From: a virus
Lineage: Duplodnaviria > Caudoviricetes
Reading direction: 5' to 3' (one strand)
DNA: 64,000 bases
Virus record (IMG/VR): IMGVR_UViG_3300025018_000091
The translations under genes and the position numbers were made by a program. Within the stretch, counting starts at the first letter, position 1. Each line of letters begins with the position of its first letter. Shown one piece after another: positions 1,390 to 37,409 of this stretch. The notes beneath the pieces were generated by a model. It did not search any database. It saw only the letters and a list, made by a program, of their open reading frames with translations, and was not told the origin of the DNA.

Positions 1390-1416
1390 TTATTTTCCCA
1401 TAATAATAGTTAGATA

Positions 1417-1761
1417 GGAGTAAATCTATAAGCGGAGTCCTGTCTATAAATCGAGACAATCATTAATCTTGGCGAACAATTACTCATTCGCTCCAGCGTC
1501 AACCCGGAAACTCAGACGAGTAGTCCTCAATCATTTCCTGTTCGACTTGCAGCACATAGGGTTTGCAAATGCCACTCATATCACTATGAGTGCGGTAGGC
1601 TCTTACCCTGCCTTTTCAACCTTACCATTTTACTGGCGGTATGTTTTCTGTTGCACTTTCCGTCACCTCACAATGCCTGGGTGTTACCCAGTATGTCACT
1701 CTTTGCTGCTCCGACTTTCCTCATATAACCGCCGGTTATATGCGATTGTCCAATCTACTCC
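1417..1761 (-). ncRNA. rnpB: RNase P RNA, bacterial type A
   Basis: Minus strand: GGAGUAGAUU/AAUUUACUCC-type P1, GACAAUCG/UGAUUGUC P2, GAGGAAAGUCGGAG with ACAGGACUCCGCUUAU (P4), CUGGGUAACACCCAG, ACGGAAAGUGCAACAGAAAACAUACCGCC, GGUAAGAGCC, GCAAACCC...GCAAG. Confidence 0.95.
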
Positions 1762-7771: not shown

Positions 7772-7847
7772 TGGTGGGCTATACAGGTAACGCTCCTGTG
7801 TTTACTCCATATCAGAGAGTCGTCGTAAACTTTTGGACCAATAGCCC
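7772..7847 (-). tRNA. tRNA-Ile(GAU)
   Basis: GGGCUAU/AUAGCCC-ACCA; ACUCU-CU-GAU-AU-GGAGU; atypical T loop. Confidence 0.82.
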
Positions 7848-7893
7848 ATTGTCAATGCTCGCTACAACCTTTAACGTATGGACCAAGCAATGC

Positions 7894-7969
7894 TGGTAGC
7901 AGAGACGGGAATTGCACACCGTGACCTCCTGGGTATGAACCAGACGAGCTGCTTCTGTTCTACTCTGCA
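7894..7969 (-). tRNA. tRNA-Met(CAU), initiator-like
   Basis: UCUGG-UU-CAU-AC-CCAGG; unpaired 1:72; CCA. Confidence 0.82.
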
Positions 7970-7980
7970 ATAACTTTCAA

Positions 7981-8565: not shown

Positions 8566-8645
8566 TATACTCTCCTATTAAAATCAACTAATTAAATTTA
8601 TTTAATTAATCTACAGTATGAAGTATAAATGACTAAATATTGGCA

Positions 8646-8721
8646 TGGTGGTACATACTAGAGTTGAACTAGTATTTGCTGTTTATCAGACAACCGTCTT
8701 AGACCGTTGGACCAATGTACC
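8646..8721 (-). tRNA. tRNA-Ile(GAU)
   Basis: GGUACAU/AUGUACC-ACCA; loop CU-GAU-AA; UUCAA T loop. Confidence 0.9.
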
Positions 8722-8727
8722 ATAGAA

Positions 8728-8891
8728 GAAACAACTAAAATTTGAGTGATAGCATGCCTTTCGGCATCATCGCGTCTACCATTCCGCCACAATCTCAGAC
8801 CTCTCGGCACGTAGAGAAAGGAGGGATTCGAACCCTCATAACTGTTAAGTTAATGATTTTTCTAAATGTAATCACTACAGGCATTTGTTTC
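8728..8891 (-). ncRNA. Y-RNA-like ncRNA A with circularly permuted class II (Leu-type) tRNA domain
   Basis: GAAACAA-AUGCC-UGUAGUGAU-UACAU ... AUCACUCA-AAUUUUAG-UUGUUUC; inside, in order: variable arm, T arm GAGGG-UUCGAAU-CCCUC, acceptor-like stem, D arm GUGGCGGAAUGGUAGACGCG. Confidence 0.8.
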
Positions 8892-8892
8892 A

Positions 8893-8968
8893 TGGTGGTG
8901 CCCCTCGGGATCGAACCGAGATATCAGGATCTTCAGTCCCGCGCATGAGCCATCACTGCCAGAGCACC
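8893..8968 (-). tRNA. tRNA-Phe(GAA)
   Basis: CGGGA-CU-GAA-GA-UCCUG; CCA. Confidence 0.9.
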
Positions 8969-8990
8969 ATGAAGTCATTTATACGAAAGA

Positions 8991-9066
8991 TGGTGGTACC
9001 TACTGGATTTGAACCAGTGACGCCAAGTTCTTCAGACTTGCGCTCTGCCAACTGAGCTAAGGTACC
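8991..9066 (-). tRNA. tRNA-Phe(GAA)
   Basis: Canonical cloverleaf, CAAGU-CU-GAA-GA-ACUUG; CCA. Confidence 0.95.
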
Positions 9067-9162
9067 ATTGGTGGGGCATATTAGGAATCGGAGCCCCCGT
9101 CCCGAACATTGTTGTCATCCAACATCTCATATCGTAAGATATGATTTAATAATGTTGGCGTC

Positions 9163-9738
9163 CTAAATTTTAGTAAAATCTGCTGTGCTTCCAAAATCTA
9201 CATAAACATAATTACCATAAGTGTCTTGCATTATATTATCTGGATTCGCCTCAAAATCCCAAGGATCTAATCCAAGTTCACTCATCAATGTTTCTTTTAA
9301 GTTTTTAACTTTAACCGGATCTTTATTACCTTTAATTGGAAATACCCTGTCAGCAATATAATATGCTATCCATATTGGATTAGCAAATGAAGACACATCA
9401 CCAACTAATAACTTTTGACCTACCCTTACAGCTATTCCAGAATTATAAACATTGGTTATATGCTCTGACTTAATTGATTCCAATCCCTTAAGAAAAGAAA
9501 GAACCTTATCTTTTTTATTATCTGGTAACAAAAAGAACTTAATTATTTTATTATTACCATAATCATAAACTTCGCCTTCTGCACCCGCGCCAAGCATTTC
9601 CCCATGAGGAATTTGAACACCCAAAGATTTTTCAACTATATCTAATAAATCTGTATCATTAGATCTAAAACTATTATATAGTTCATCTAATTTCATTTCC
9701 CTTACAGGATTTTCATAAGATGTGCTCATCTCATCCAT
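9163..9738 (-). CDS. protein kinase-like protein
   Basis: LGAGAEGEVY Gly loop, IIK lysine, NPDNIM catalytic-like loop, VDFG; frame stays open upstream to ~9828. Confidence 0.65.
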   Translation of the reverse strand: MDEMSTSYENPVREMKLDELYNSFRSNDTDLLDIVEKSLGVQIPHGEMLGAGAEGEVYDYGNNKIIKFFLLPDNKKDKVLSFLKGLESIKSEHITNVYNSGIAVRVGQKLLVGDVSSFANPIWIAYYIADRVFPIKGNKDPVKVKNLKETLMSELGLDPWDFEANPDNIMQDTYGNYVYVDFGSTADFTKI

Positions 9739-9807
9739 CTCTTTTAATTTATCAAGATTAGAAATGAACCTATCTAAATCAAATAAGGTTGCATTTAATG
9801 TTCTATC

Positions 9808-9863
9808 TACAACCCCTTTAACTCCTTGAATTAATATTAATTCAAGGAGTTAAAGGGGTTGTA
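9808..9863. repeat. 56-bp perfect palindrome
   Basis: TACAACCCCTTTAACTCCTTGAATTAAT followed directly by its reverse complement. Confidence 0.95.
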
Positions 9864-10099
9864 TTGTATTATAGATGTTCCATCCTTGAGTTTCAAAAAA
9901 GAGTATATATATTCGCCGGAAGAATCATTTATAAAATCTGAATCTGTAAATACAAAATTATATCCTTTGTATTGAGAACCATTTCCTTCTTTGACTTGTT
10001 GGGCAAAATTATCTAAATCACTAGAGGCTAATGCTAAAAAAATACTCTGCTTGTTTTAATAAACTAACTGCGCGCATAATATAATGGCGTGTTATTAAT

Positions 10100-10210
10100 A
10101 ATTGACTGTACCAGTTTCACTCCTGGCATGGTGTACCTTTCCCAACTATTTCAGGGCGTTACTGTGACGAATTTCACCATAAAGGAATAGCCATCAGATG
10201 CCAGTCAATT
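10100..10210. ncRNA. unassigned structured RNA candidate
   Basis: Closed by AATTGACTG/CAGTCAATT, GC-richer than flanks, internal CTGGCAT/ATGCCAG pairing. Confidence 0.3.
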
Positions 10211-10253
10211 CCAGCGCTTCAATCGAGGTCGGTTCCTCGTACCATAACAGTCA

Positions 10254-10329
10254 TGGGTATACTATTGGACTTGCACCAATTCTTCACCTCGGGAAAGAGG
10301 GAGTGCTTACTACTTACACTAATATATAC
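10254..10329 (-). pseudogene. degenerate tRNA-like gene (6-nt anticodon loop)
   Basis: D arm, T arm UUGG-UGCAAGU-CCAA, CCA; CCUC-UUUCCC-GAGG. Confidence 0.5.
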
Positions 10330-10330
10330 T

Positions 10331-10400
10331 TGATATGTACCTCGGATTTGCACCGAAACTGACGGCTCAGCCGTTATGCAGCTCTTACATCAATACATAT
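10331..10400 (-). pseudogene. degenerate tRNA-like gene (5-nt anticodon loop)
   Basis: AUAUGUA/UACAUAU acceptor, UCGG-UGCAAAU-CCGA T arm. Confidence 0.45.
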
Positions 10401-10510
10401 GCCTTATCTACTTACTGAGTCGGACTCAAATAATATATAAGTTTATGATGTCTGTACACAACAAATATAAACTTGGGGTTCCCTATTCGAATATTCTACG
10501 GAAGTAGATT

Positions 10511-10587
10511 TGGTTGGACAGGTGGGAGTTGAACCCACTTCTAGATGTTTATAAGACATCCCTCCATGACCGATTGAGTTCTGTCCA
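10511..10587 (-). tRNA. tRNA-Ile(UAU)
   Basis: GAUGU-CU-UAU-AA-ACAUC; canonical T arm; CCA. Confidence 0.88.
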
Positions 10588-10599
10588 ATGATCATTTTA

Positions 10600-10676
10600 T
10601 GGTCGTATAGGTGGGAATCGAACCCGACTTCTAACTGCTTGTAAAACAATCCTCCATACCAATTGAGTTCTATACG
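10600..10676 (-). tRNA. tRNA-Val(UAC)
   Basis: AUUGU-UU-UAC-AA-GCAGU; D arm nearly identical to neighbouring Ile(UAU). Confidence 0.85.
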
Positions 10677-10680
10677 ATAA

Positions 10681-10755
10681 TGGCACCCCTGAGCGGAATC
10701 GAACCGCCCTCAATAGCGTGACAAGCTACCCGCCTCACCAGATGCGTACAAGGGT
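10681..10755 (-). tRNA. tRNA-Asp(GUC)
   Basis: GUAGC-UU-GUC-AC-GCUAU; G73; CCA. Confidence 0.88.
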
Positions 10756-11041
10756 ATTCTAAGCATGAATAAAACCATGCCAGAGGTTATACATTATATG
10801 TGCCATCTATCATAGATTTCAAAGTAGTTAATACTTCAATCTTACTAGGATAGCTGACAACAAATGTATTATGCTCATAACTAGCAATTCCAACATATTT
10901 TTGTGTTCGATTGTTATGACTCAACGTTATATCATAATCACACTTATTATACCAATCTAGTATTTCTAGCTTATTCATACATTCTCCATGTTAGATAAAT
11001 CTTTAGTATAAGATAATATGCATTGTTAATTACAAACAATT

Positions 11042-11117
11042 TGGTGGGACCAGAGGGATTTGAACCCTCATCAAACAGATTAAGAGTCTGCTATGTTTCC
11101 ATTGACACCATAGTCCC
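11042..11117 (-). tRNA. tRNA-Lys(CUU)
   Basis: GCAGA-CU-CUU-AA-UCUGU; CCA. Confidence 0.92.
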
Positions 11118-11120
11118 ATA

Positions 11121-11212
11121 CAATTACTACAAGTTCGTTGGCAACAGCGCTTCTTCGCTTCTCTACCTGTCTTATTGAGTTCATCAATTGTGCAACTTAC
11201 ACCAAGTAATTG
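11121..11212 (-). ncRNA. tRNA-derived ncRNA candidate, family 2 copy 1
   Basis: CAAUUACU/AGUAAUUG closing stem, D-arm-like UGGUGUAAG..GCAC, similar to 11530-11618. Confidence 0.4.
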
Positions 11213-11271
11213 CAAACACACGATACATCAGAGGCTGGTTAAACTATCACTTGAGTATCTTAGCGTGTCAG

Positions 11272-11342
11272 CGGAACTAGGGGGAATCGAACCCCCGCTT
11301 ATAGATCGACAATCTACAGTCCTACCATTAAACGATAGCTCC
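11272..11342 (-). tRNA. tRNA-Asp(GUC)
   Basis: GUAGA-UU-GUC-GA-UCUAU; CCA not encoded. Confidence 0.9.
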
Positions 11343-11344
11343 TA

Positions 11345-11450
11345 ATATCAGACAAAATATGTAAACATAAGGGAACCATCCCGTCAAGTTGGAATCGAAC
11401 CAAACTAGTTGTTGATTTGGTACAATGTAATGCTTACTGCATTCTGATAT
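11345..11450 (-). ncRNA. Y-RNA-like ncRNA D (T arm only)
   Basis: AUAUCAGA-AUGCA-GUAAGCAU-UACAU ... AUGUUUAC-AUAUUUUG-UCUGAUAU; internal UUGG-UUCGAUU-CCAA. Confidence 0.8.
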
Positions 11451-11525
11451 GGTGGGACCAGAGGGGGTCGAACCCTCACCGAACAGATTAAGAGTCTGGC
11501 ATGCTCCCATTAACACCACGGTCCC
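11450..11525 (-). tRNA. tRNA-Lys(CUU)
   Basis: CCAGA-CU-CUU-AA-UCUGU; paralog of 11042-11117. Confidence 0.92.
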
Positions 11526-11529
11526 ATTC

Positions 11530-11618
11530 GATTACGCTGGAGTCGGCAATAGCAGATCTTTACTATATCTCTCTCCAGTCCTAGAGTCAAGGTCTAGGCG
11601 CTCTTACGCTACATAACC
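11530..11618 (-). ncRNA. tRNA-derived ncRNA candidate, family 2 copy 2
   Basis: GGUUAUG/CGUAAUC closing stem, UAGCGUAAGAGCGC, CUAGA-CCUUGAC-UCUAG hairpin. Confidence 0.4.
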
Positions 11619-11650
11619 AAGGCTGTTTTATTCGAAGTCAACAACCTTTT

Positions 11651-11690
11651 TAGTAGGAAAGGGTGGATTTGAACCACCTTTTACTTTCCC
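11651..11690 (-). ncRNA. tRNA minihelix (acceptor stem plus T arm only)
   Basis: GGGAAAG-UAAAA-GGUGG-UUCAAAU-CCACC-CUUUCCU-A-CUA. Confidence 0.65.
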
Positions 11691-11693
11691 ATA

Positions 11694-11920
11694 ATAAACG
11701 ACAAAAATTTGCTAAGACACCGGCACATTGATGGTCTTTTCAGATTACATCCGTTCGCCCCGCACTTTTGAGTCAGTGACTCTCTAGAAGACAGCATTAC
11801 CTGTTACCTTCGACTTATGAATATTACTATTCAAATTAGCGCCATCGCGTAATTCCTCACGGAATCAGTAGCTACCTTAGGGTCATTATTGATATGTAGT
11901 CCTAACTTGCATTCGTTTAT
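11694..11920 (-). ncRNA. Y-RNA-like ncRNA E (long insert)
   Basis: AUAAACGA-AUGCAA-GUUAGGAC-UACAU ... GUCUUAGC-AAAUUUUUG-UCGUUUAU. Confidence 0.78.
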
Positions 11921-11997
11921 GGCTCCCGCACTAGGGTTTTCACCTAGAACCTCGCACCCTAATCTGGGTGGTACTCTGTATTTTGAGCTATACGGAA
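11920..11997 (-). pseudogene. tRNA-like gene with 6-nt anticodon loop
   Basis: Acceptor, D and T arms and CCA present; CACCC-AGAUUA-GGGUG. Confidence 0.6.
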
Positions 11998-12157
11998 TGG
12001 TCAACGGAAAAGGATTCGAACCTTTGACTACCCAGCACACTCAGAGTAACTATCATCGTCCTCAACATAATATATCGATCTATCATATTTGGTGTCGAAT
12101 AATCTTTAAACTAAATGCTTCTACTACTTGGTGCTCTGACCTCTGAGCTATCCGTCG
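11998..12157 (-). ncRNA. tRNA body with ~90-nt insert replacing the anticodon loop
   Basis: CGACGGA-UAGCUCAGAGGUCAGAGCA ... AAAGG-UUCGAAU-CCUUU-UCCGUUG-ACCA. Confidence 0.7.
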
Positions 12158-12162
12158 ATAAA

Positions 12163-12292
12163 GTAACAACAAGGATTTGAAGAGACTAGTTGTACTAGCG
12201 CCAGCTTCCCCATATAGTGGGGAATAAAGGAATCGGACCTTAATCGTTTATTGTATCAAAATAAAATGTAATCCCTTACATGCATTTGTTAC
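12163..12292 (-). ncRNA. Y-RNA-like ncRNA B with permuted tRNA-like domain
   Basis: GUAACAA-AUGCA-UGUAAGGGAU-UACAU ... AUCCUUG-UUGUUAC; T arm AAGG-UCCGAUU-CCUU then acceptor hairpin UUCCCCA-CUAUA-UGGGGAA. Confidence 0.75.
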
Positions 12293-12293
12293 G

Positions 12294-12376
12294 TGGTTTC
12301 CCCGCTAGGATTTGCACCTAGATTTTCTACTTAGTACGTACTTAAATAGATGTCCTAATTATTAGACGACAGAAAA
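12294..12376 (-). pseudogene. tRNA-like gene with 15-nt anticodon loop
   Basis: D arm UCGUCUAAUAAUUAGGAC, T arm CUAGG-UGCAAAU-CCUAG, CCA; loop UUAAGUACGUACUAA. Confidence 0.6.
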
Positions 12377-12380
12377 ATAC

Positions 12381-12452
12381 AATGCTTCTTCCTGGCTTCT
12401 ATTCCAGAATCTTCGCCCTAAGCGAGATAATAATTTATACTAAAAAAGCATT
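12381..12452 (-). pseudogene. highly degenerate tRNA-like gene
   Basis: AAUGCUU/AAGCAUU closing stem with cloverleaf-like spacing. Confidence 0.3.
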
Positions 12453-12529
12453 TGGTGCTTCCGTTCGCCTTTCGATAGCGAAATCTCCCAGGTTCATTCC
12501 GGGCGTTTTACCATTTAAACTACAGAAAC
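12453..12529 (-). pseudogene. tRNA-like gene with atypical anticodon and T loops
   Basis: GUUUCUG/CGGAAGC-ACCA; loop AAUGAAC lacks U33; 9-nt T loop. Confidence 0.55.
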
Positions 12530-12531
12530 AT

Positions 12532-12677
12532 AAGTGACAAGAAATATAAAGATTTTATTCGGCGCCCTGCACTTTTTCCTTTCGGACCACTTGTGCTATG
12601 ATTAGCTTTCACTAACCAGCAGGATTCGATACCTGCACCATCGGACATTTTTGATGTAATCCTTATTGCATTCACTT
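12532..12677 (-). ncRNA. Y-RNA-like ncRNA F with permuted tRNA-like domain
   Basis: AAGUGA-AUGCA-AUAAGGAU-UACAU ... AUCUUUAU-AUUUCUUG-UCACUU; GCAGG-UAUCGAAU-CCUGC then UGGUUAG-UGAAAG-CUAAUCA. Confidence 0.8.
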
Positions 12678-12763
12678 GGCTCTCAGGGCTGGATTCGAAC
12701 CAACGGTGCATTTCTACGGCGGATTAACAATCCGCTGCCTTGACCTGACTAGGCTACCTGAGA
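12677..12763 (-). tRNA. tRNA-Asn(GUU) with long variable arm
   Basis: GCGGA-UU-GUU-AA-UCCGC; Tyr-like D arm, 14-nt variable region; G73; CCA. Confidence 0.8.
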
Positions 12764-13083
12764 ATATTATACTCAATAAAAGACTCATTAAATATTGACA
12801 CATTTAGTGGAACTAACAACACTCCTTCATGAATCTCGGCATGACAATTATTACAAACTAAGATGCACTTTCGTAATTCAATTACGATTTTATTCCAACT
12901 TTTAGGACTTCCTCTAACTGCTCCCAAACCAAATTCTTTTTTAGAAGGATCTAAATGATGTAAAGATAATGCAGAAGAACATTTATTATATCCACAGAAG
13001 CAACATTTACCTCCCATTGCAAGTATAATTCTCTCTTTTGTGCGTTTTCTCCAACGCTTAACTTTCTCAGATTGCTTACTCAT
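12754..13083 (-). CDS. HNH endonuclease
   Basis: GGKCCFCGY..SLHHLDP...CILVCNNCHAEIH. Confidence 0.88.
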   Translation of the reverse strand: MSKQSEKVKRWRKRTKERIILAMGGKCCFCGYNKCSSALSLHHLDPSKKEFGLGAVRGSPKSWNKIVIELRKCILVCNNCHAEIHEGVLLVPLNVSIFNESFIEYNILR

Positions 13084-13097
13084 ACTTAGATATATAG

Positions 13098-13168
13098 CGA
13101 CCCCCCTCGGACTTGAACCGAGATTCGAAACTTAACAGGCTCCCGTTCTACCTTTGAACTAAAGGGTC
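13098..13168 (-). tRNA. tRNA-Asn(GUU)
   Basis: GGAGC-CU-GUU-AA-GUUUC; CCA not encoded. Confidence 0.85.
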
Positions 13169-13173
13169 AATTA

Positions 13174-13456
13174 TTGATGACAAAATTTGTAAAGATAATG
13201 GCTTTATCTTAAGTAACACTGACGTGCCTCAAGAGCCATAGTGTAAGTATCCCCTCAACACCATATGGAATGTAATTTATCCATTAACATCTTTTGGAAT
13301 ATACAATTAATACTCACTGCATATTTATGAGACATATAGTTTTCTAACGGGTTTACCATTCATTATGTTTCGGAATGGCGGGCATTTCTTATAAATAAGC
13401 ATTACCCATTTATTATCGGTTGTTGTATTTATGTAATCCTTACATGCATTCATCAA
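13174..13456 (-). ncRNA. Y-RNA-like ncRNA C (long AU-rich insert)
   Basis: UUGAUGA-AUGCA-UGUAAGGAU-UACAU ... AUCUUUACA-AAUUUUG-UCAUCAA. Confidence 0.78.
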
Positions 13457-13532
13457 TGGTGGGACCGGAGGGAATTGAACCCTCAACTTTCTGGTTAAAA
13501 GCCAGCTACTCTGCCAATTGAGTTACGGACCC
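13457..13532 (-). tRNA. tRNA-Lys(UUU)
   Basis: CUGG-CU-UUU-AA-CCAG; CCA. Confidence 0.92.
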
Positions 13533-13560
13533 GATTTGCGGATATCATCCGCAAGGGAAA

Positions 13561-13683
13561 CTATTTTTTAGTTGTTTGTTTGGTACTCTTAGAACTCTTG
13601 CTAGAGTTTTTATTGAGTTTTCGCCAACATGGTCGGCAATATTTACCGCCAAGTGAACGAGCAATCTCACATGCTTTACACAT
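13561..13683 (-). CDS. 40-aa basic CxxC..CxxC peptide (not in ORF track)
   Basis: GAGAGGAGGTG RBS then MCKACEIARSLGGKYCRPCWRKLNKNSSKSSKSTKQTTKK*. Confidence 0.55.
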   Translation of the reverse strand: MCKACEIARSLGGKYCRPCWRKLNKNSSKSSKSTKQTTKK

Positions 13684-13761
13684 AGTTCACCTCCTCTCAT
13701 TGAGTGGAGGTCACTAACTGTCAACTAAATAAACCATGAATTCTCCTTGAATAGAATTATT

Positions 13762-13906
13762 GTAGCAACGAAAATTTGTGAGACTATTTTTAACGTGTGC
13801 TGCCGCTACACTAACCCAAGATATAAAGTAAATTGGTCTTGGGTGCGGGAATCGGACCCGCCCTTCGTGCGCCCAATGCAATGTAATCCCAACATGCATT
13901 TGCTAC
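13762..13906 (-). ncRNA. Y-RNA-like ncRNA I with complete permuted T-acceptor-D domain
   Basis: GUAGCAA-AUGCA-UGUUGGGAU-UACAU ... GUCUCACA-AAUUUUCG-UUGCUAC; GCGGG-UCCGAUU-CCCGC, ACCCAAGA/UCUUGGGU hairpin, D arm UAGUGUAGCGGCAGCACAC. Confidence 0.85.
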
Positions 13907-13907
13907 T

Positions 13908-13982
13908 TGGTGGTCTCACTAGGACTTTCACCTAGACCGCCTCCTGAAATGGAGGTATTCATAAAACTTAAACTACAAGACC
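13908..13982 (-). pseudogene. tRNA-like gene with 6-nt anticodon loop
   Basis: GGUCUUG/UGAGACC-ACCA; CCUCC-AUUUCA-GGAGG. Confidence 0.6.
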
Positions 13983-13983
13983 A

Positions 13984-14080
13984 TGACGCTATAAACTTAT
14001 TTATTTGGTAGCGTCAGCGGGACTCGGACCCACAACCTCGTTCTTATAAATGAAATGTAATCCCTACAAGCATTTGCTAT
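13984..14080 (-). ncRNA. Y-RNA-like ncRNA J (5' module, T arm and acceptor hairpin; 3' strand not found)
   Basis: AUAGCAA-AUGCU-UGUAGGGAU-UACAU, GUGGG-UCCGAGU-CCCGC, UGACGCU-ACCA...AGCGUCA. Confidence 0.6.
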
Positions 14081-14081
14081 A

Positions 14082-14154
14082 TGGTCGCGAGACTGTGGGA
14101 TGAGCACAGATTTCCACCCTAAAAGTGGCGAGCTATCATTTACTCCATCTCGCA
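14082..14154 (-). pseudogene. tRNA-like gene, nominal anticodon UUA
   Basis: CCAC-UUUUAGG-GUGG; T loop CUCAUCC is non-canonical; CCA. Confidence 0.55.
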
Positions 14155-14155
14155 A

Positions 14156-14227
14156 TGGATGCGGAGGCAAGAATTGAACTTGCAGAATCTAGCTTATGAG
14201 ACTAGGTTGGGACCGTCTCTCCCCGCT
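14156..14227 (-). tRNA. tRNA-Met(CAU), reduced D arm
   Basis: CUAGU-CU-CAU-AA-GCUAG; A1:A72 mismatch; CCA. Confidence 0.75.
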
Positions 14228-14252
14228 ATAAAATAATGTATGATATACATCA

Positions 14253-14326
14253 TGGTGGAGCGTAGGGGTTACCCTCCCCTTCTTCTGCGGTGCAAGCGCA
14301 GCGTATTCGTATCCTACTCACGCCCC
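14253..14326 (-). tRNA. tRNA-Ala(UGC)
   Basis: G3:U70, CUGCG-CU-UGC-AC-CGCAG; atypical T loop. Confidence 0.82.
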
Positions 14327-14385
14327 ATATTATCTATGCATATAGTGGAATAAAATTAACTTGCACAAAATAGGAAAACTCCACT

Positions 14386-14880
14386 ATGGCTAAAACGAAA
14401 ACTAACTGTTTAAATTGTAACAAAGAAATTTATGTTGAAAACAAAGAAATTAAAAGAGGTTTTGGAAAATTTTGTAATTCCAAATGTTCTAGTGAACATA
14501 GAATTCGTAATAAACCAAAATTGCTAGATAATGTAAATTGTGCCCTATGCAATAAATCTTTTCATATGACCGAAAGTAAAAAAAAGTTATCAAAATCTGG
14601 ATTATATTTTTGTTGTCGAACACATAAAGATGAAGCACAACGCATTGGTGGTATAAAAGAAATTATGCCGCTACATTATGGCACCGCCAAACCAGACAAT
14701 TCTCGTTCTTATAGAAGAATAGCTTTCAATGAAAAAGCTAAAATGTGTGAAAGATGTGGATATGATCAACACGAAGCTGCGATAATTGTTCACCACAAAG
14801 ATAGCAACAGAGACAATAATAATCTAGATAATCTTGAAATATTGTGTGCTAATTGTCACGCTATAGAACATTGGAGCTGA
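14386..14880 (+). CDS. HNH homing endonuclease
   Basis: CERCGY..IVHHKDSNRDNNNLDNLEILCANCHAIEH. Confidence 0.9.
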   Translation: MAKTKTNCLNCNKEIYVENKEIKRGFGKFCNSKCSSEHRIRNKPKLLDNVNCALCNKSFHMTESKKKLSKSGLYFCCRTHKDEAQRIGGIKEIMPLHYGTAKPDNSRSYRRIAFNEKAKMCERCGYDQHEAAIIVHHKDSNRDNNNLDNLEILCANCHAIEHWS

Positions 14881-14903
14881 TGCCCGTGGAACTACATCTC
14901 ATT

Positions 14904-14977
14904 TGGTGACGCATAGGAGAGTCGAACTCCTCTTCGTAGATTGAAAGCCTAATGTCCTACCGATAGACGAACGCGCC
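14904..14977 (-). tRNA. tRNA-Glu(UUC)
   Basis: loop CU-UUC-AA; canonical D and T arms; CCA. Confidence 0.88.
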
Positions 14978-15064
14978 ATAACTATGATAAAATCACCGGA
15001 GTTGCGCCGGATATTGTCCTCACGAACAATATTGAATACCATCGACCCTAATTCTATCAATTTG

Positions 15065-15137
15065 TCAGAGAGAGAGGATTTGAACCTCCACCACATGGAT
15101 CCAAACCATGGACGCTACCAGATTACGCTACTCCCTG
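15065..15137 (-). tRNA. tRNA-Pro(UGG)
   Basis: CAUGG-UU-UGG-AU-CCAUG; CCA not encoded. Confidence 0.88.
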
Positions 15138-15247
15138 ATTGAGTCGCCCTAAGAGATATGTTCTAAACTAACTCCTTGGGCGGATTAGGTTTAGCCAATC
15201 AATCTCTATTATTCCCAAACCTATGCGGGCTGAACATAGGTCTTTCG

Positions 15248-15323
15248 TGGTCGGAATGAGAAGACTCGAACTTCCGATACCTTGTACCCAAAACAAGTGC
15301 CATAGCCACTAGGCGACATTCCG
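15248..15323 (-). tRNA. tRNA-Pro(UGG)
   Basis: CUUGU-UU-UGG-GU-ACAAG; CCA. Confidence 0.92.
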
Positions 15324-15424
15324 ATATACTTCTGCTCTCCAACTTTCTGTTACGCTTCAAAAGTAAAAGGTAACTTCTATTAATAAGTATCGTACGTTAG
15401 ACTTGGAATTAAGTACGTATACTT

Positions 15425-15508
15425 TGGTGGGGACGGTAGGATTCGAACCTACATTGCTCAAGACGGCATCTTTATCGGATGCTGAGAGACCCATCTCTCT
15501 TCGCCCCC
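15425..15508 (-). tRNA. Tyr-type tRNA body with atypical loop (nominal AUA, G33)
   Basis: GCAUC-CGAUAAA-GAUGC, long variable arm, canonical T arm, CCA. Confidence 0.6.
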
Positions 15509-15550
15509 ATTGGATATTAAATTATCAGCGATCAAGACGTCCCATGACGT

Positions 15551-15639
15551 TGGTGCCGCCTGGTGGAATCGAACCACATAGCCACTCGGGGCGCCTGATT
15601 TACAGTCAGGAGATCCTCCCAGGAATCTAGTCAGTCGGC
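15551..15639 (-). tRNA. tRNA-Tyr(GUA)
   Basis: CCUGA-CU-GUA-AA-UCAGG, long variable arm, CCA. Confidence 0.9.
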
Positions 15640-15803
15640 ATTATATTTTGAATTGAATGTATTTATCTCCTAAAGTTATAGAATTTTTAGTTATTAAAGG
15701 TACTGAAACTACATAATTATTACTAATAAAGTAATAAATTGCTGCCGCCAACCCTACATCTCCCTGTTTTTTAGTATTTACTTGATTAAACATGAGACAA
15801 TAT

Positions 15804-15871
15804 TAACTGACAAAATATAGTGTAGATGTTTTTGGTCAAATATCAATGTAATCCACACAAGCATTCAGTTA
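15804..15871 (-). ncRNA. Y-RNA-like ncRNA G (minimal, module only)
   Basis: UAACUGA-AUGCUU-GUGUGGAU-UACAU ... AUCUACAC-UAUAUUUUG-UCAGUUA; 68 nt. Confidence 0.75.
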
Positions 15872-15961
15872 TAGTAAAATTAAACGAATTTAATCGAATA
15901 ACTTTATATCGAACCCTACCAATATTACAGCATACAAATATTGATGATACTTAGGAGTAAT

Positions 15962-16613
15962 ATGAGGCAAGGTAAAATAGCATCTATCACAAACGAAGAA
16001 TTAACAACCCTTATACAAAACAATATATCATTGAAAAACGTTTTGTTATTTTTAAATCTACATCCGAGTAGTGGAAAATAGAAGATTAAAACAAAAATTA
16101 GAACAAGAGAATATCAATTACGATCATATCAAAAATGGTTCGGGATACGATCCCTCCAAAATACATACATTTAGAAAGCATGTATCATTGAATGATGTTC
16201 TTACTCTAAACTCTTCTTATAGTCCAAGATTACTTAAGAAGCGTCTTATAAAAGAAGGTTTATTATTCAACTATTGTAATGTATGTAATATACAGCCACT
16301 TTGGAATAATCTACCACTTCAATTACAGTTAGATCATATCAATGGTAACAATAGAGATAATAGGTTGGAAAATCTAAGATTATTATGCCCTAATTGTCAT
16401 TCCCAGACAGACACATTCGCTGCCAAAAATAAAATCAAAAAGAACAAACCTACAAAAATAGTACAACCACGAAAAACAAAGATAACTTGGCCAGATGACA
16501 ATGAGTTGCTAGATTTAGTAACAAACTCAAATTTTGTTCAAGTTGCCGCAACACTTGGTGTAAGTGATAATGCTATTAGAAAAAGATTAAAAAGAGCGGG
16601 GCTAATCAAATAA
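15962..16613 (+). CDS. HNH homing endonuclease (frameshift near 16075)
   Basis: LQLDHINGNNRDNRLENLRLLCPNCHSQT; upstream frame MRQGKIAS... from 15962 joins through GGAAAATAG indel. Confidence 0.85.
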
Positions 16614-16619
16614 TTAGCT

Positions 16620-16691
16620 TGGCAGGTGTGGTAGGTAACGATCCCACTAGTAGAAGTTTTGGAGGCTTCCCTCTCACCTTGAGTCACACCC
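16620..16691 (-). tRNA. tRNA-Trp(CCA)
   Basis: GAAGC-CU-CCA-AA-ACUUC; G73; CCA. Confidence 0.85.
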
Positions 16692-16877
16692 AAATAATTA
16701 CTATAATTGTAACTTATAATAATCATTCGATAAATTTCGGATTCATTATAAAATAAATCTAAGTGATTTTGGACGTCACTTACATCCCTATTTACCTAGA
16801 GGAAAATAACGATTCCCCTAATCTCTATGCATCGATGCATACTTTGTTAATTAATGTTACACTTAATTAACAAAGCT

Positions 16878-16990
16878 TGGTGCGGAAGGTTGGAATTAAA
16901 CCAACAACCTTCGGGTTAATCATTTAAACTCTAGTGTCGACGTTATCCATCAACTCAAGTCCCGGCGCTCCTTCTTCAAGCCGCTTCCAC
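16878..16990 (-). ncRNA. fMet-like tRNA body with ~45-nt insert in the anticodon loop
   Basis: GUGGAAG/CUUCCGC-ACCA; CCGGG ... UAACCCGAAGGUUGUUGG as in initiator tRNA. Confidence 0.65.
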
Positions 16991-16993
16991 ATA

Positions 16994-17059
16994 AAGGTAA
17001 CAAAAAGTGTAAAGATTGTTTTTTTAATGGTTAGATGTAATCCTTACGGCATTTACCTT
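16994..17059 (-). ncRNA. Y-RNA-like ncRNA H (minimal, module only)
   Basis: AAGGUAA-AUGCC-GUAAGGAU-UACAU ... AUCUUUAC-ACUUUUUG-UUACCUU; 66 nt. Confidence 0.78.
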
Positions 17060-17134
17060 GGTAGGAAAGGTTGGACTTCAACCAACGTCCTGACAACCTT
17101 TACGTTGCCTGCTCTTTCTCTGAGCTACTTCCCT
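17059..17134 (-). pseudogene. tRNA-like gene with 6-nt anticodon loop
   Basis: AGGGAAG/CUUUCCU-ACCA; GCAAC-GUAAAG-GUUGU. Confidence 0.6.
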
Positions 17135-17390: not shown

Positions 17391-17418
17391 ATTGTAACCT
17401 CTTCTCACCGCCTGTCAA
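17391..17418 (-). promoter_or_regulatory. sigma70-like promoter TTGACA-N16-TACAAT
   Basis: Points into the tRNA/ncRNA cluster; overlaps the annotated ATG of ORF 17192-17392, whose real start is probably the next Met. Confidence 0.6.
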
Positions 17419-22319: not shown

Positions 22320-22997
22320 TCATTTCTCTGCATATTTATTTCCTAATTTGGAACAAGATTTGCATTGTGTTGATTTATCATTCAATAAATCAAATGCCGA
22401 TACAATCGCTTCTTTATCACATTCGCAACGGCAATTGTATTTGTTACAACCATCAACTTTACTAATAATTGTCCAAGAATTGAACTTATCACCAACATTA
22501 AGATAAGTTCGTTTCTTTGGTGTAGTGAAAGCTTTCAGCGGCTCCCAGCCTTCTGATATTCTATCTTTTGCCAAAGTATATTGAATATTATATATTTCAC
22601 ACCACTCTACCATTGGTTTGGTTTCAGAACCAATGGTAATTAATTTGGTGGTCCTACGATTGCGAGCCTGCTGTTTATCAGTTGCCCAGCGACAATTATC
22701 AGGAGAATAATTCCCATCACTATCGATCCTATCAATAGAATGTTTGGCAGATGGCTTGAGCCCCATATCTTGATGGAAATTATCAAATCCATCAACACCA
22801 AGCCACCTATCACAAACAGTTATTCCTCTACCACCATAATTCTCATAAAAAGGAGTTTGTGGATAATAACACCTACGTATCATATGATACCAAGCATTAT
22901 ATTCTTTAGTCCTTGAATTTGAATATTTGTACTTAAATCTTGAGGGAAGATTAAAGTTTAATCTGCTCGATTGTGTTGACCCATAAGTCTGCATCAT
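22320..22997 (-). CDS. HNH-type homing endonuclease
   Basis: YNAWYHMIRRC, YGGRGITVCDRW, SIDRIDSDGNYSPDNCRWAT..QQARN. Confidence 0.88.
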   Translation of the reverse strand: MMQTYGSTQSSRLNFNLPSRFKYKYSNSRTKEYNAWYHMIRRCYYPQTPFYENYGGRGITVCDRWLGVDGFDNFHQDMGLKPSAKHSIDRIDSDGNYSPDNCRWATDKQQARNRRTTKLITIGSETKPMVEWCEIYNIQYTLAKDRISEGWEPLKAFTTPKKRTYLNVGDKFNSWTIISKVDGCNKYNCRCECDKEAIVSAFDLLNDKSTQCKSCSKLGNKYAEK

Positions 22998-24522
22998 TTC
23001 CGTACTCCATGAACTTATATATCACGTCAAATACAGAATCGCCGAATCCTCCAATGTTAAGCACGTCATTTCTCGAATGAGCTTGCGTAGTTGCTCCTGG
23101 TTGAATATCAATGCAAACTAGCTTTGCATTTGGGTTGTTTTTCTTAAACTTCTGCCAAGCATACATAGTAGCAGTGCTACGATAACGTCCAGAATCAACC
23201 CAAGACTCGTTATCTGAAACATAAATCACTAGGTCTCCCTTAGCTCCTTCACGATTCAGTTGTTCTAATGGAAGTGAACAGCTAGTTCCACCACCACCAA
23301 ACTTAGCTAGATAAGCTGCATTTGTCATGATAGAATCCATAGGATTCATCTTAGCATTATGCACCCTAGTATCGAAAGGCATAACTCTTGCTTCTGGGTT
23401 CTTACGCAAGATTGCTGCCGCAACCAAAGCTGCAACATCTACACAAGTCGTCTTTGAAGTCACCGTTGAACGGTATCCCGTTACTGGAGAAGCCATCGAA
23501 CCTGAAACGTCTACCATTACATAGACTTTCCCATTGATTTCAGGAATGTTCTCACAAGCTACTTCCGCAGCCTTTTGCAAAGCCATGTTTAACTTCATAG
23601 GAACCTTCTCATCAATGTTTTTGAAAGCCGTGAACAACTGATATGGGAATACCTTTGCTCTACGAATCTGCTCTGGATCTGCCAACTTATCTGCCAAAAC
23701 AGAAACCAACTTAGTATCTTCCAACACACCGTGGCGTGCGAAAGTATTCAAATTCATTCTGACCTGAGTCCAAGTTGCATTGTCAGCAATCTTCTTCCAG
23801 TGTTCCTTTGTTAGAGGCAAAGCAGTCAACATCTGGAAAGGAACGTTAGGGATCTCTCCCTTCATATCCTTCTTGAAGGCTTGGAACTGACGAACCAATG
23901 GGCATAGATCTTTTCTATTATACTCCTTGTCAAGCAAGTAAGCATACATAGCATTTCTATTCTTGTTCGTTGGACGAGGGTGTACCAACTTGATAATATC
24001 TTCTAGCGAAGGATCATTACCAACATTAGCCTTAAACAACTGCTCATCAGTCAACCCCTCAAGATAAGCCTGTATTAACTTCTTTGGACGAGTACCCAAA
24101 GACTTACGTCCCGTTGCTCCAGAACGAACAATCTGCACAAAATTGCGCACCATCTTTGGATTGTCAATGACCTTTGGAAAAATCTTCGAAAGGAGTTCTG
24201 GCGCTCTACCTGCAACCAAAGCTGCAAGAACAGCAGGCATATCCTTCATAAGTCCCTTCTGTCTCGAATACACTGCCAACTTTGCCAAGAACTCAGGACT
24301 AACCTTCTTGGAAAGTTCAAGTACCTTATTCAACTGATCCTTATCAGAAGCATAATACGTACCGTTAAGACAACCAGTCATTGCATACTGCGCAAGCGCA
24401 GCTTTATCACTCAACTTATAAGCCTGTCCTCCAGCTTCATTCACCGTATCGGCTGCTCTCACAACCTTAACTGAAGTTGACTTGCTGTTTGACTTGTTTG
24501 AGAATAGGTTCTTAGATGCCAT
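22951..24522 (-). CDS. rsr: Ro60/Rsr TROVE-domain ribonucleoprotein with C-terminal vWA
   Basis: NEAGGQAY..SDKAALAQYAMTG, MKDMPA, LRNF-like VRNFVQ, HPRP, VMVDVSGSM, GGGTSC, ISDNES-like YVSDNESW. Confidence 0.93.
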   Translation of the reverse strand: MASKNLFSNKSNSKSTSVKVVRAADTVNEAGGQAYKLSDKAALAQYAMTGCLNGTYYASDKDQLNKVLELSKKVSPEFLAKLAVYSRQKGLMKDMPAVLAALVAGRAPELLSKIFPKVIDNPKMVRNFVQIVRSGATGRKSLGTRPKKLIQAYLEGLTDEQLFKANVGNDPSLEDIIKLVHPRPTNKNRNAMYAYLLDKEYNRKDLCPLVRQFQAFKKDMKGEIPNVPFQMLTALPLTKEHWKKIADNATWTQVRMNLNTFARHGVLEDTKLVSVLADKLADPEQIRRAKVFPYQLFTAFKNIDEKVPMKLNMALQKAAEVACENIPEINGKVYVMVDVSGSMASPVTGYRSTVTSKTTCVDVAALVAAAILRKNPEARVMPFDTRVHNAKMNPMDSIMTNAAYLAKFGGGGTSCSLPLEQLNREGAKGDLVIYVSDNESWVDSGRYRSTATMYAWQKFKKNNPNAKLVCIDIQPGATTQAHSRNDVLNIGGFGDSVFDVIYKFMEYGNDADLWVNTIEQIKL

Positions 24523-37291: not shown

Positions 37292-37409
37292 TTGTGGGGC
37301 AGGTGAGATTCGAACTCACAATCATTACTAGTGTACTCAGTAATGATAGGCGTTTAAAAGTCGTACACTACTCTTAAATCGCCCGCGTATTCCATTCCGC
37401 CACCGCCCC
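37292..37409 (-). ncRNA. tRNA-Leu(UAA)-derived RNA with extended anticodon and variable arms
   Basis: GGGGCGG-UGGCGGAAUGGAAUACGCG Leu D arm, canonical T arm; UAA buried in a 9-bp stem. Confidence 0.7.

What the first reader, a model, noticed from the sequence alone, without database searches (positions are those of the whole stretch)
8728..17059. Ten-member ncRNA family with a shared covarying terminal module, hidden among the tRNAs (candidate phage Y-RNA array)
Seen: ten minus-strand elements (8728-8891, 11345-11450, 11694-11920, 12163-12292, 12532-12677, 13174-13456, 13762-13906, 13984-14080 partial, 15804-15871, 16994-17059). Each begins with a 6-8 bp terminal stem strand, then AUGC, then an ~8-nt strand, then UACAU. 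In nine the 3' end pairs back, and eight of those also have a UUUU(G)-type loop strand. Sequences of both stems differ between copies but pairing is kept: GUAAGCAU/AUGUUUAC, GUUAGGAC/GUCUUAGC, GUGUGGAU/AUCUACAC, UGUAGUGAU/AUCACUCA, UGUUGGGAU/GUCUCACA. AUGC, UACAU and the U run stay nearly invariant, which is the signature of a protein-binding RNA module. Known: Y RNAs are a Ro60-binding terminal stem plus a variable effector domain, and a Ro60 gene lies at 22951-24522. Inference: this is an expanded Y-RNA-like repertoire with a module I do not recognise (it is not the GNCGAA-type bacterial Y motif).
Basis: partly seen in the sequence, partly recalled or inferred. Interest (0 to 1): 0.95.

Follow-up and report, generated by a model that had tools for sequence, protein, structure and literature searches.

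The report
Phage Y RNA array among tRNAs
A huge uncultured groundwater phage carries nine complete and one degenerate copy of a small structured RNA scattered through its tRNA cluster; they are diverged members of the known bacterial Y RNA family (YrlA/YrlB), the partners of the Ro60 protein that the phage encodes 6 kb away, so this is a large and tidy example of a known system, not a new RNA class.

Summary
Nine close into the same two-helix module; one (13984-14080) lacks a convincing 3' half. A covariance model built from phage copies only finds the nine at 43-64 bits and nothing else in 64 kb. Across 58 distinct copies from phages and bacteria, all 15 base pairs show compensatory change (93.6% paired; 35-60% when partners are slid).

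The Y RNA reading is right, but the claim of an unrecognised module is wrong. AUGC, (U)UACAU and the U-rich ...UUG strand are the conserved letters of Rfam YrlA and YrlB. The phage-only model hits 3-6 tandem RNAs directly beside rsr/Ro60 in Neisseria, Brucella and Hyphomicrobium, and seven of those hits are also Rfam YrlA matches (E down to 1.8e-11). Relatives carry the literal GNCGAAUG motif.

Related huge phages carry 3-9 copies on the Ro60 strand, and 29 of 41 abut a tRNA gene, which suggests release by tRNA processing. Expression and Ro60 binding are untested.

Other first readers of this scan noted the same array on this genome.

Verdict: a new member of a known kind, notable for copy number, varied cargo domains and tRNA interleaving.

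The parts
8728..8891 (-). e1: Y RNA, 164 nt, with T-arm-containing tRNA-like cargo; lies between tRNA-Phe (1 nt upstream) and tRNA-Ile (6 nt downstream)
   Evidence: R3 55.0 bits; R2 43.8 bits, not in its training set; T arm GAGGG-UUCGAAU-CCCUC; gaps to tRNAs
11345..11450 (-). e2: Y RNA, 106 nt, with a short T-arm-like cargo; lies between tRNA-Lys (0 nt) and tRNA-Asp (3 nt)
   Evidence: R3 53.9 bits; its T arm matches phage tRNA T arms; gaps
11694..11920 (-). e3: long Y RNA, 227 nt, about 175-nt cargo without tRNA arms; carries ACGAAUG, the closest copy in the window to the published motif
   Evidence: R3 53.2 bits, not in any training set; MFE fold closes the module, z -1.67; no homolog of the cargo found
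12163..12292 (-). e4: Y RNA, 130 nt, with T-arm-like cargo and a bulged U in helix 2
   Evidence: R3 52.4 bits; cargo resembles L009:17568-17716
12532..12677 (-). e5: Y RNA, 146 nt, with T-arm-like cargo; starts at the CCA end of tRNA-Asn
   Evidence: R3 55.6 bits; gap -1
13174..13456 (-). e6: long Y RNA, 283 nt; cargo conserved in two related phages; lies between tRNA-Lys(UUU) (0 nt) and tRNA-Asn (5 nt)
   Evidence: R3 42.8 bits, not in training; fold z -3.46; orthologs L007:18307-18529 and L009:19430-19627 share stem 1 and an internal hairpin
13762..13906 (-). e7: canonical YrlA-type Y RNA, 145 nt: module, V region, T arm, closed acceptor-like stem, D arm, module
   Evidence: Rfam RF02553 full-length match, 28.9 bits, E 9.7e-5 on the element alone; R3 57.4 bits
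13984..14080 (-). e8: degenerate or partial copy: intact 5' module, T arm and acceptor-like hairpin, no convincing 3' module; it runs straight into a tRNA-like gene with an aberrant anticodon loop (13908-13982)
   Evidence: R2 23.7 bits over 13961-14080 with a poor 3' half; R3 17.2 bits, E 0.17; its 5' stem strand could also pair 6 of 7 with the 3' strand of e7
15804..15871 (-). e9: minimal YrlB-like Y RNA, 68 nt, module plus an 18-nt loop; the only copy with no tRNA-like body directly upstream
   Evidence: Rfam RF02565 full-length match, 22 bits, E 0.011 on the element; R3 62.7 bits
16994..17059 (-). e10: minimal YrlB-like Y RNA, 66 nt; starts at the CCA end of the first tRNA-like gene of the array
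   Evidence: R3 63.8 bits; gap -1
22951..24522 (-). Phage Ro60/Rsr gene (523 aa), same strand as the array; its stop codon lies 5.9 kb upstream of e10
   Evidence: PF05731 TROVE 6.8e-12 and PF25045 vWA_Ro60 3.6e-19; PDB 2nvo Rsr 1.5e-19, 9kop phage Ro60, 1yvp Xenopus Ro60
1413..1761 (-). Phage-encoded bacterial type A RNase P RNA, the probable 5'-end processing activity for the tRNA / Y RNA array (association inferred)
   Evidence: RF00010, 278.2 bits against a gathering score of 100
17391..17418 (-). Sigma-70-like promoter candidate about 260 nt upstream of the first gene of the array (weak evidence)
   Evidence: TTGACA-16-TACAAT, 11 of 12; consensus match only

Best explanation
The ten elements are Y RNAs of the bacterial YrlA/YrlB type. 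Each has a terminal 6-8 bp stem, an asymmetric internal loop (AUGC on the 5' side, a U-rich ...UUG strand on the 3' side) and a second 8-9 bp helix closed by (U)UACAU. Together these form the Ro60-binding module. A variable cargo domain is inserted at the apex of that module. The phage Ro60 encoded at 22951-24522 is the inferred partner. The cargos define sub-types: tRNA-like (e7 is fully YrlA-like; e1, e2, e4, e5 and e8 have T-arm-bearing variants), minimal hairpins (e9, e10, YrlB-like), and two long non-tRNA domains (e3, e6). By analogy with characterised Ro60 RNPs, the module docks on Ro60 and the cargo either tethers Ro60 to another factor, as Yrn1 tethers Rsr to PNPase, or gates its cavity. 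The genes are probably co-transcribed with the phage tRNAs and cut out by tRNA processing: RNase P, for which the phage has its own RNA, cuts at the 5' end of the next tRNA, and 3'-end maturation of the preceding tRNA frees the Y RNA 5' end. Shown here: the sequence family, its structure, its homology to YrlA/YrlB, its co-occurrence with Ro60 and its abutment to tRNAs. Inferred, not shown: transcription, the processing route, Ro60 binding and any downstream function.
For: Homology, forward direction: Rfam YrlA aligns full-length to e7 (28.9 bits) and YrlB to e9 (22 bits). The alignments share gaAUGC, GGAUUA and UUUGu at the module positions, plus T and D arms in e7.

Homology, reverse direction: CM R3, built only from phage copies, hits 3-6 tandem RNAs on the rsr strand within about 750 nt of rsr in Neisseria sp., two Brucella species and a Hyphomicrobium MAG. 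Seven of those hits are Rfam YrlA matches at 37-61 bits, E down to 1.8e-11. The Neisseria copies read GGGCGA-AUGC-...-UACAU ... UAUUUAG-UCGCCC.

Intermediate forms: Myxococcus phage Mx1 has two copies, one with GCCGAAUGC, and one scores 32 bits on YrlA.

Calibration of the low Rfam scores: the YrlA-like matches at the Ro60 loci of two actinophages (a phage group in which Chen et al. report YrlA) score only 28.8-37.8 bits on the same model.

Structure: 15 of 15 pairs covary across 58 distinct sequences.

Co-occurrence: eight related IMG/VR phage contigs with Ro60 at 68-77% identity were found. The seven with at least 7.8 kb of sequence downstream of Ro60 carry 3-9 copies on the Ro60 strand, mostly 3-11 kb downstream of it. 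A complete 178-kb phage has three copies 50-430 nt upstream of its Ro60.

Specificity: 78 of 80 control loci (685 kb in all) have no R3 hit, and two complete phages lacking Ro60 have none.

tRNA punctuation: 29 of 41 copies lie within 5 nt after or 10 nt before an ARAGORN tRNA on the same strand. D. radiodurans Yrn2, tRNA-Asp and Yrn1 are made as one precursor, and RNase P cleaves M. smegmatis YrlA (PMC4201824). The window carries an RNase P RNA.
Against: No transcript, end-mapping or binding data exist, and no RNA run holding this DNA was listed. All window copies fall far below Rfam's gathering scores (28.9 against 69; 22 against 97). The literal GNCGAAN0-1G motif is not complete in any window copy; e3 comes closest with ACGAAUG and the others have YRAAUG. 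The nearest copy is 5.9 kb from Ro60, beyond the 4-kb rule used by Chen et al. R3 does not hit the Y RNA regions of actinophage or Vibrio phage Ro60 loci, so the module model is clade-limited. The covariation alignments were fitted to the model.
Confidence: 0.82

Rival explanations
1. The module is a structured spacer of phage tRNA arrays, serving as a processing, stability or RNase-guiding element for the polycistronic tRNA transcript. On this view it works independently of Ro60, and its likeness to YrlA is shared ancestry only.
For: 29 of 41 copies abut tRNAs. In the window the array is 6-14 kb from Ro60 rather than adjacent. The 17%-complete fragment G006 has 5 copies in a tRNA array and no Ro60 on the piece held.
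Against: The same module sits directly beside Ro60 with no tRNA nearby in a complete phage and directly beside rsr in four bacterial genomes. It coincides with Rfam YrlA hits. Every adequately complete genome with the module has Ro60.
Confidence: 0.08
2. The copies are decaying by-products of tRNA gene duplication and rearrangement (permuted or broken tRNA pseudogenes, possibly shuffled by the resident HNH and GIY-YIG homing endonucleases) and have no function of their own.
For: Several copies contain T-arm pieces that resemble phage tRNAs. e8 is degenerate. Homing endonuclease genes are interspersed. The array also holds several aberrant tRNA-like bodies.
Against: The two minimal copies have no tRNA part at all. 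Both helices are kept by compensatory change in 15 of 15 pairs while AUGC and UACAU stay fixed. The e6 cargo and its stem are conserved in three phages. Copies persist across Ro60 lineages only 51-77% identical to each other.
Confidence: 0.03
3. They are Y RNAs, but their main target is the host and not the phage Ro60. They could act as decoys or sponges for a host Ro60/Rsr, for tRNA-modifying or tRNA-cleaving defence enzymes, or for PNPase, with the phage Ro60 playing a secondary role.
For: tRNA-like cargos are substrates of tRNA enzymes in bacteria (PMC4201824). Phage phiLo Y-like RNAs bind host PNPase in vitro, with and without the phage Ro60 (PMC12135203). The copies sit in a tRNA island.
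Against: Nothing here tests it. The strict co-inheritance with a phage Ro60 gene argues that the phage protein is needed.
Confidence: 0.07

Closest known systems
YrlA (Rfam RF02553; Chen et al. 2014, RNA 20:1715, PMC4201824)
   Same: Terminal stem carrying (C)GAAUG(C), a second helix, YUAY (here UUAC), then V region, T arm, closed acceptor-like stem and D arm, with a U-rich ...UUG return strand. Same strand as Ro60. e7 aligns full-length. R3 and RF02553 hit the same bacterial RNAs.
   Different: Scores lie far below the gathering threshold. The motif is relaxed to YRAAUG. There are nine to ten paralogs. The copies are 6-14 kb from Ro60 and interleaved with tRNAs. Most cargos keep only a T arm or have diverged D and acceptor parts.
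YrlB (Rfam RF02565) and the 'long hairpin with small loop' Y RNAs (D. radiodurans Yrn2, M. smegmatis YrlB)
   Same: e9 and e10 are the module plus a short A/U-rich loop. e9 aligns full-length to YrlB, with identical GAAUGCU, GGAUUA and UUUGUC blocks.
   Different: 22 bits against a gathering score of 97; the phage copies are AT-rich and slightly shorter (66-68 nt against a 78-position model).
D. radiodurans Yrn2 - tRNA-Asp - Yrn1 polycistronic precursor (PMC4201824)
   Same: Y RNAs and a tRNA are made from one transcript and separated by processing. This is the same logic as the tRNA-Y-tRNA spacing of 0-6 nt seen here.
   Different: There it is one tRNA and two Y RNAs beside rsr. Here it is a tRNA island with 19 ARAGORN-called tRNA genes across about 9.4 kb (7772-17134), plus further tRNA-like bodies, and 9-10 Y RNAs. 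Processing here is inferred only.
Phage Ro60 / Y-like RNA pairs: mycobacteriophages (Chen et al. 2014) and Thermus phage phiLo Yrl1/Yrl2 (PMC12135203)
   Same: A phage-encoded Ro60 with phage-encoded Y-like RNAs. In Streptomyces phage Limpid the YrlA-like RNA also follows a tRNA directly inside a tRNA array.
   Different: One or two RNAs per phage in those cases. R3 does not recognise the actinophage module.
Nematode stem-bulge RNAs (sbRNAs), a multi-copy Y RNA homolog family (PMC4450293 abstract; the eukaryotic gene organisation below is from my own knowledge)
   Same: A precedent for a Y RNA family that has expanded to many paralogs in one genome.
   Different: Eukaryotic, individually transcribed genes; no tRNA punctuation and no tRNA-like cargo.

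Membership tests
Bacterial Y RNA, YrlA/YrlB type | 5' and 3' ends pair into a stem that carries the Ro60-binding region, with a second helix beyond an internal loop | tested here: met
   9 of 10 copies. 15 of 15 pairs covary across 58 sequences. MFE folds recover the module in 7 of 10.
Bacterial Y RNA, YrlA/YrlB type | Literal GNCGAAN0-1G motif near the 5' end (Chen et al. 2014) | tested here: inconclusive
   No window copy has all specified letters. e3 has ACGAAUG; the others have C/U/A-G/A-AAUG. The position-equivalent motif is literal in relatives of the same CM family: GACGAAUG in L004/L005, GCCGAAUG in Mx1, GGCGAAUG in Neisseria. AAUG(C) is invariant in all ten window copies and near-invariant in the 39 aligned copies (one has AAUGU).
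Bacterial Y RNA, YrlA/YrlB type | Conserved YUAY at the start of the V loop | tested here: met
   UUAC in nine copies and CUAC in e3, always directly after helix 2.
Bacterial Y RNA, YrlA/YrlB type | At least one Y RNA per genome has a tRNA-like domain (T arm, closed acceptor-like stem, D arm) | tested here: met
   e7 aligns to the T and D arms of RF02553. T arms are found in e1 and e8 by pattern and in e2 by similarity to phage tRNAs.
Bacterial Y RNA, YrlA/YrlB type | Encoded near the Ro60/rsr gene on the same strand (within 4 kb in Chen et al. 2014) | tested here: inconclusive
   The same strand is met. The distance is 5.9-14 kb in the window and mostly 3-11 kb in close relatives. It is under 0.5 kb in phage G005 and within about 750 nt in four bacteria.
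Bacterial Y RNA, YrlA/YrlB type | Reaches Rfam's gathering score for RF02553 or RF02565 | tested here: not met
   28.9 against 69 and 22 against 97. The same thresholds also exclude tandem YrlA-like RNAs beside rsr in Neisseria (61.1 bits) and the actinophage YrlA-like matches (28.8-37.8 bits). The threshold is therefore conservative, not defining.
Bacterial Y RNA, YrlA/YrlB type | Reciprocal profile recognition with bona fide YrlA | tested here: met
   The phage-only CM R3 hits bacterial RNAs, seven of which are RF02553 matches with E between 1.8e-11 and 1.6e-4.
Bacterial Y RNA, YrlA/YrlB type | Bound and stabilised by Ro60 | not testable with these tools
   No RNA run was listed. The complex predictor takes proteins only.

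The most novel reading that the evidence does not exclude
The phage runs a diversified adaptor library. One Ro60 ring is combined with about ten Y RNAs whose fast-evolving cargos direct it to different partners or targets. The cargos include tRNA mimics, bare hairpins and two long domains, one of which is conserved in three phages. The library is co-expressed with the phage tRNA island and processed by a phage RNase P. On this reading the tRNA island, Ro60 and Y RNAs form one phage-controlled system for tRNA and RNA surveillance or for countering defence, for example as decoys or repair scaffolds against host tRNA-cleaving enzymes.
Probability: 0.2. Interest if true: 0.75.

Novelty: new member of a known kind. 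Interest (0 to 1): 0.4.

Why it matters
Ro60 and Y RNA function in bacteria and phages is still poorly understood, and only a few Y RNAs have been studied. This locus and its relatives offer a natural series of paralogs that share one Ro60-binding module but differ in cargo, which is useful material for asking what the cargo domain does. The work also shows that Rfam's YrlA and YrlB thresholds miss a whole clade of Y RNAs in huge phages, in the cultured Myxococcus phage Mx1 and in Neisseria, Brucella and Hyphomicrobium, and that 3-6 tandem Y RNAs beside rsr are not rare. The tight tRNA-Y-tRNA packing, together with a phage RNase P RNA, gives a simple and testable biogenesis model. None of this changes the concept of what a Y RNA is.

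Tried and rejected
1. MAFFT alignments of full-length copies mis-aligned the 3' module.
2. A single-sequence CM (R1) found only e9 and e10. It was replaced by R2 and then R3.
3. The exact-pattern scan of IMG/VR (AATGC-N4-8-GGATTACAT) returned mostly chance matches: only 2 of the 80 listed loci were real by R3. It served as a negative control.
4. Rfam E-value scans of three close relatives gave no YrlA or YrlB hit at E<=0.05.
5. R3 found nothing at actinophage and Vibrio phage Ro60 loci.
6. A megablast of the array against GenBank phages found no match.
8. A loose descriptor scan and R3 at E<=1 were used to look for an eleventh copy that another reader reported; none was found in this window.
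9. BLAST of the cargo domains found nothing for e3; e4 and e6 have weak relatives.
10. The supplementary tables of Chen et al. 2014, which would give copy numbers per phage, are not held, and the 2020 Annual Review is not held.
11. No whole genome is held for the window, so PNPase, RtcB or other partners elsewhere in the phage could not be sought.

Full report
**What is there**

The window is AT-rich (32-39% GC) and looks like phage DNA. It carries HNH and GIY-YIG homing endonuclease genes, a PARG gene, a nucleoside deoxyribosyltransferase gene, CoaBC-like genes and a DNA methyltransferase gene. No host genome is held for it. The DNA occurs in an aquifer metagenome.

ARAGORN finds 23 tRNA genes, 19 of them on the minus strand between 7.7 and 17.1 kb. 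Rfam adds further tRNAs and a bacterial type A RNase P RNA at 1413-1761 (278 bits).

Each one starts with a 6-8 nt strand, then AUGC, then a 9-11 nt strand, then UACAU. Nine end with a strand complementary to the second one, then a U-rich run ending in G, then the complement of the first strand. ATGC-N9-11-TACAT occurs ten times on the minus strand, all inside the array, against about 0.6-0.9 expected per spacing.

**Is the structure real**

ViennaRNA recovers both helices unaided in seven copies.

I built covariance models step by step, because MAFFT could not align the 3' halves of copies that range from 66 to 283 nt:
- R1, from e9 alone, was too narrow.
- R2, from e4, e5, e7 and e10, found the untrained e1, e2 and e9 at 37-44 bits and e8 at 23.7 bits.
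- R3, a 65-position model of the module built from 39 phage copies, found all nine complete copies at 42.8-63.8 bits. This includes e3 and e6, which were in no training set. It found nothing else in 64 kb above E = 0.17.

Pair counts:
- Window only: 92.4% paired, 11 of 15 pairs with changes on both sides.
- 58 distinct copies from 13 sources: 93.6% paired, 15 of 15 pairs with changes on both sides. Only 35-60% are paired when the 3' partners are slid by 1-3 columns.

The alignments were fitted to the model and paralogs share ancestry, so these figures are descriptive, not probabilities. Even so, stem 1 differs almost completely between copies while it stays paired.

e8 is the exception. Its 5' module, T arm and acceptor-like hairpin are intact. 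The only candidate 3' half is poor and overlaps the next tRNA-like gene. Its 5' strand could instead pair 6 of 7 with the 3' end of e7. I treat it as degenerate.

**What it is**

Below threshold, Rfam YrlA aligns end to end with e7 (28.9 bits), and YrlB aligns end to end with e9 (22 bits). In e7 the T and D arms align as well.

Chen et al. 2014 (PMC4201824) define bacterial Y RNAs by three features:
- a GNCGAAN0-1G motif near the 5' end;
- a YUAY at the start of the V loop;
- a tRNA-like T / acceptor-stem / D domain.

Here UUAC is the YUAY, and (Y)(R)AAUG is a relaxed form of the motif.

The link is closed by three independent sets of relatives.

1. Related phages. Eight IMG/VR contigs have Ro60 at 68-77% identity, and four of them come from contigs of 267-359 kb. 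The seven with at least 7.8 kb of sequence downstream of Ro60 carry 3-9 copies of the module on the Ro60 strand, mostly 3-11 kb downstream and interleaved with tRNAs. Several of these copies read GACGAAUG.

2. More distant phages. Myxococcus phage Mx1 (Ro60 52.7% identical) has two copies in its tRNA array. One has GCCGAAUGC, and one scores 32 bits on YrlA. A complete 178-kb phage has three copies 50-430 nt upstream of its Ro60 with no tRNA nearby.

3. Bacteria. Neisseria sp., two Brucella species and a Hyphomicrobium MAG have rsr genes 51-52% identical to the phage gene. In these, R3 hits 3-6 tandem RNAs on the rsr strand within about 750 nt of rsr. Seven of those hits are Rfam YrlA matches at 37-61 bits, with E down to 1.8e-11. 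The Neisseria copies show the full module with GGCGAAUGC, UACAU and UAUUUAG.

So a model that has seen only phage copies recognises bacterial YrlA, and the YrlA model recognises a phage copy.

The low Rfam scores do not count against this. The YrlA-like matches at two actinophage Ro60 loci, a phage group in which Chen et al. report YrlA, score only 28.8-37.8 bits, and even the Neisseria RNAs miss the gathering score of 69.

**The protein partner**

ORF 22951-24522 (minus strand) has TROVE and Ro60-type vWA domains. It matches solved Rsr, the Thermus phage phiLo Ro60, and Xenopus and human Ro60.

Co-occurrence is consistent. Every module-positive genome that is reasonably complete has a Ro60. 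Of 80 pattern-matched control loci (685 kb in all), 78 have no R3 hit. Two complete large phages without Ro60 have none. One 17%-complete fragment has five copies and no Ro60 on the piece held.

**How it probably works**

The docking of the module on Ro60 and the tether-or-gate role of the cargo are inferred from D. radiodurans, Salmonella and phiLo work (PMC4201824, PMC12135203).

Biogenesis is the part this locus speaks to. Of 41 copies, 29 lie within 5 nt after or 10 nt before an ARAGORN tRNA on the same strand, typically as tRNA-Y-tRNA with spacers of 0-6 nt. Several of the remaining window copies abut tRNA-like bodies ending in CCA that ARAGORN does not call. That arrangement would let RNase P and tRNA 3'-end maturation release the Y RNAs from a polycistronic transcript, as shown for Yrn2 - tRNA-Asp - Yrn1. 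The phage encodes its own RNase P RNA. A sigma-70-like promoter candidate lies upstream of the array, but this is weak evidence.

**The cargo domains**

- e7 is a canonical YrlA.
- e1, e2, e4, e5 and e8 keep a T arm with diverged remaining parts.
- e9 and e10 are bare modules.
- e3 (227 nt) and e6 (283 nt) carry long non-tRNA domains.

e6 folds better than all 200 shuffles (z -3.46). It has orthologs in two related phages that share its stem 1 and an internal hairpin, so at least one long cargo is under selection. No relative of the e3 cargo was found. Long copies of 200-280 nt recur in the relatives.

**Novelty**

Phage Ro60 genes with Y-like RNAs are known: 22 phages in Chen et al. 2014, phiLo in 2025, and a note on TROVE genes in jumbo phages in PMC7824862. 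Full-text searches found no description of Y RNA arrays in huge phages.

What is new here is a matter of degree:
- nine to ten paralogs in one genome;
- systematic interleaving with tRNAs;
- varied cargos;
- a clade that Rfam thresholds miss.

The concept is not new, and bacteria with 5-6 tandem copies make the number less striking. Other first readers of this scan noted the same array, the tRNA punctuation, the cargo classes and the RNase P RNA on this genome. I checked those points myself as cited.

**Not done**

There was no expression or binding test. The whole genome was not available to search for partners. R-scape was not run.

Noticed in passing
window 1413-1761 (-): A complete bacterial type A RNase P RNA (RF00010, 278 bits) encoded by the phage. 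No rnpA-like Pfam hit in the neighbouring ORF 841-1389.
   Followed up: partly
window 13908-13982 (-), 17059-17134 (-), about 11921-12000 (-): tRNA-like genes with aberrant anticodon loops: ARAGORN calls 'tRNA-???' with 2-nt anticodons. Some have unusual T loops of the type UGAAAxC instead of UUCGAAU. Several abut Y RNAs. They could be decoys, processing handles or decayed tRNAs.
   Followed up: no
window about 11998-12157 (-), 16878-16990 (-), 37295-37409 (-): tRNAs interrupted by insertions: about 90 nt inside a gene with perfect acceptor, D and T arms; a hairpin insert in a second gene; and a 115-nt Rfam tRNA match. ARAGORN misses the first two.
   Followed up: no
window about 11650-11690 (-): A minihelix made of a 7-bp acceptor-like stem stacked on a T arm (GGGAAAG ... 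GGUGGUUCAAAUCCACC CUUUCCU), directly downstream of e3. It could be an RNase P or CCA-adding substrate mimic.
   Followed up: no
L006 17799-17875 and 19817-19891; L008 18350-18428; L009 16217-16292: Related phages carry tRNAs that ARAGORN reads with 4-nt anticodons (ttaa, tttt, taat, ggaa). They are possible frameshift-suppressor-like or defective tRNAs.
   Followed up: no
L001 8559-8662 (OR576727.2 45521-45624): In Myxococcus phage Mx1 the annotated hypothetical CDS WNM70101.1 (45524-45646) coincides with a Y RNA hit (R3 44 bits). It is probably an RNA gene that was mis-called as a protein gene.
   Followed up: partly
L002 14617-15101: Four tandem, nearly identical minimal Y RNAs (59-65 nt) with a period of about 142 nt, which points to a recent local amplification.
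   Followed up: no
L130 5048-5815; L131 10781-11169; L132 11591-11974; L133 11674-12291: Neisseria, Brucella and Hyphomicrobium genomes carry 3-6 tandem Y RNAs beside rsr. All are below Rfam's YrlA gathering score (at most 61 bits against 69), so the curated threshold under-calls this family.
   Followed up: partly
L009 18684-18764: A sub-threshold match to the skipping-rope RNA family (30.4 bits against 36.7) inside a related phage's tRNA / Y RNA array.
   Followed up: no
window 9812-9859: A perfect 20-bp inverted repeat with an AT-rich loop between two minus-strand ORFs; it was called terminator-like on the plus strand.
   Followed up: no
window about 10130-10480 (-): About 350 nt of intergenic sequence inside the array with repeated GGUGCAARUCC-like motifs, no ORF and no Rfam match. 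It may be another structured RNA.
   Followed up: no
window 20905-21756 (-), 20522-20908 (-): A microbial-type PARG gene next to a GIY-YIG endonuclease gene, about 1.2-2.4 kb downstream of Ro60 on the same strand.
   Followed up: no
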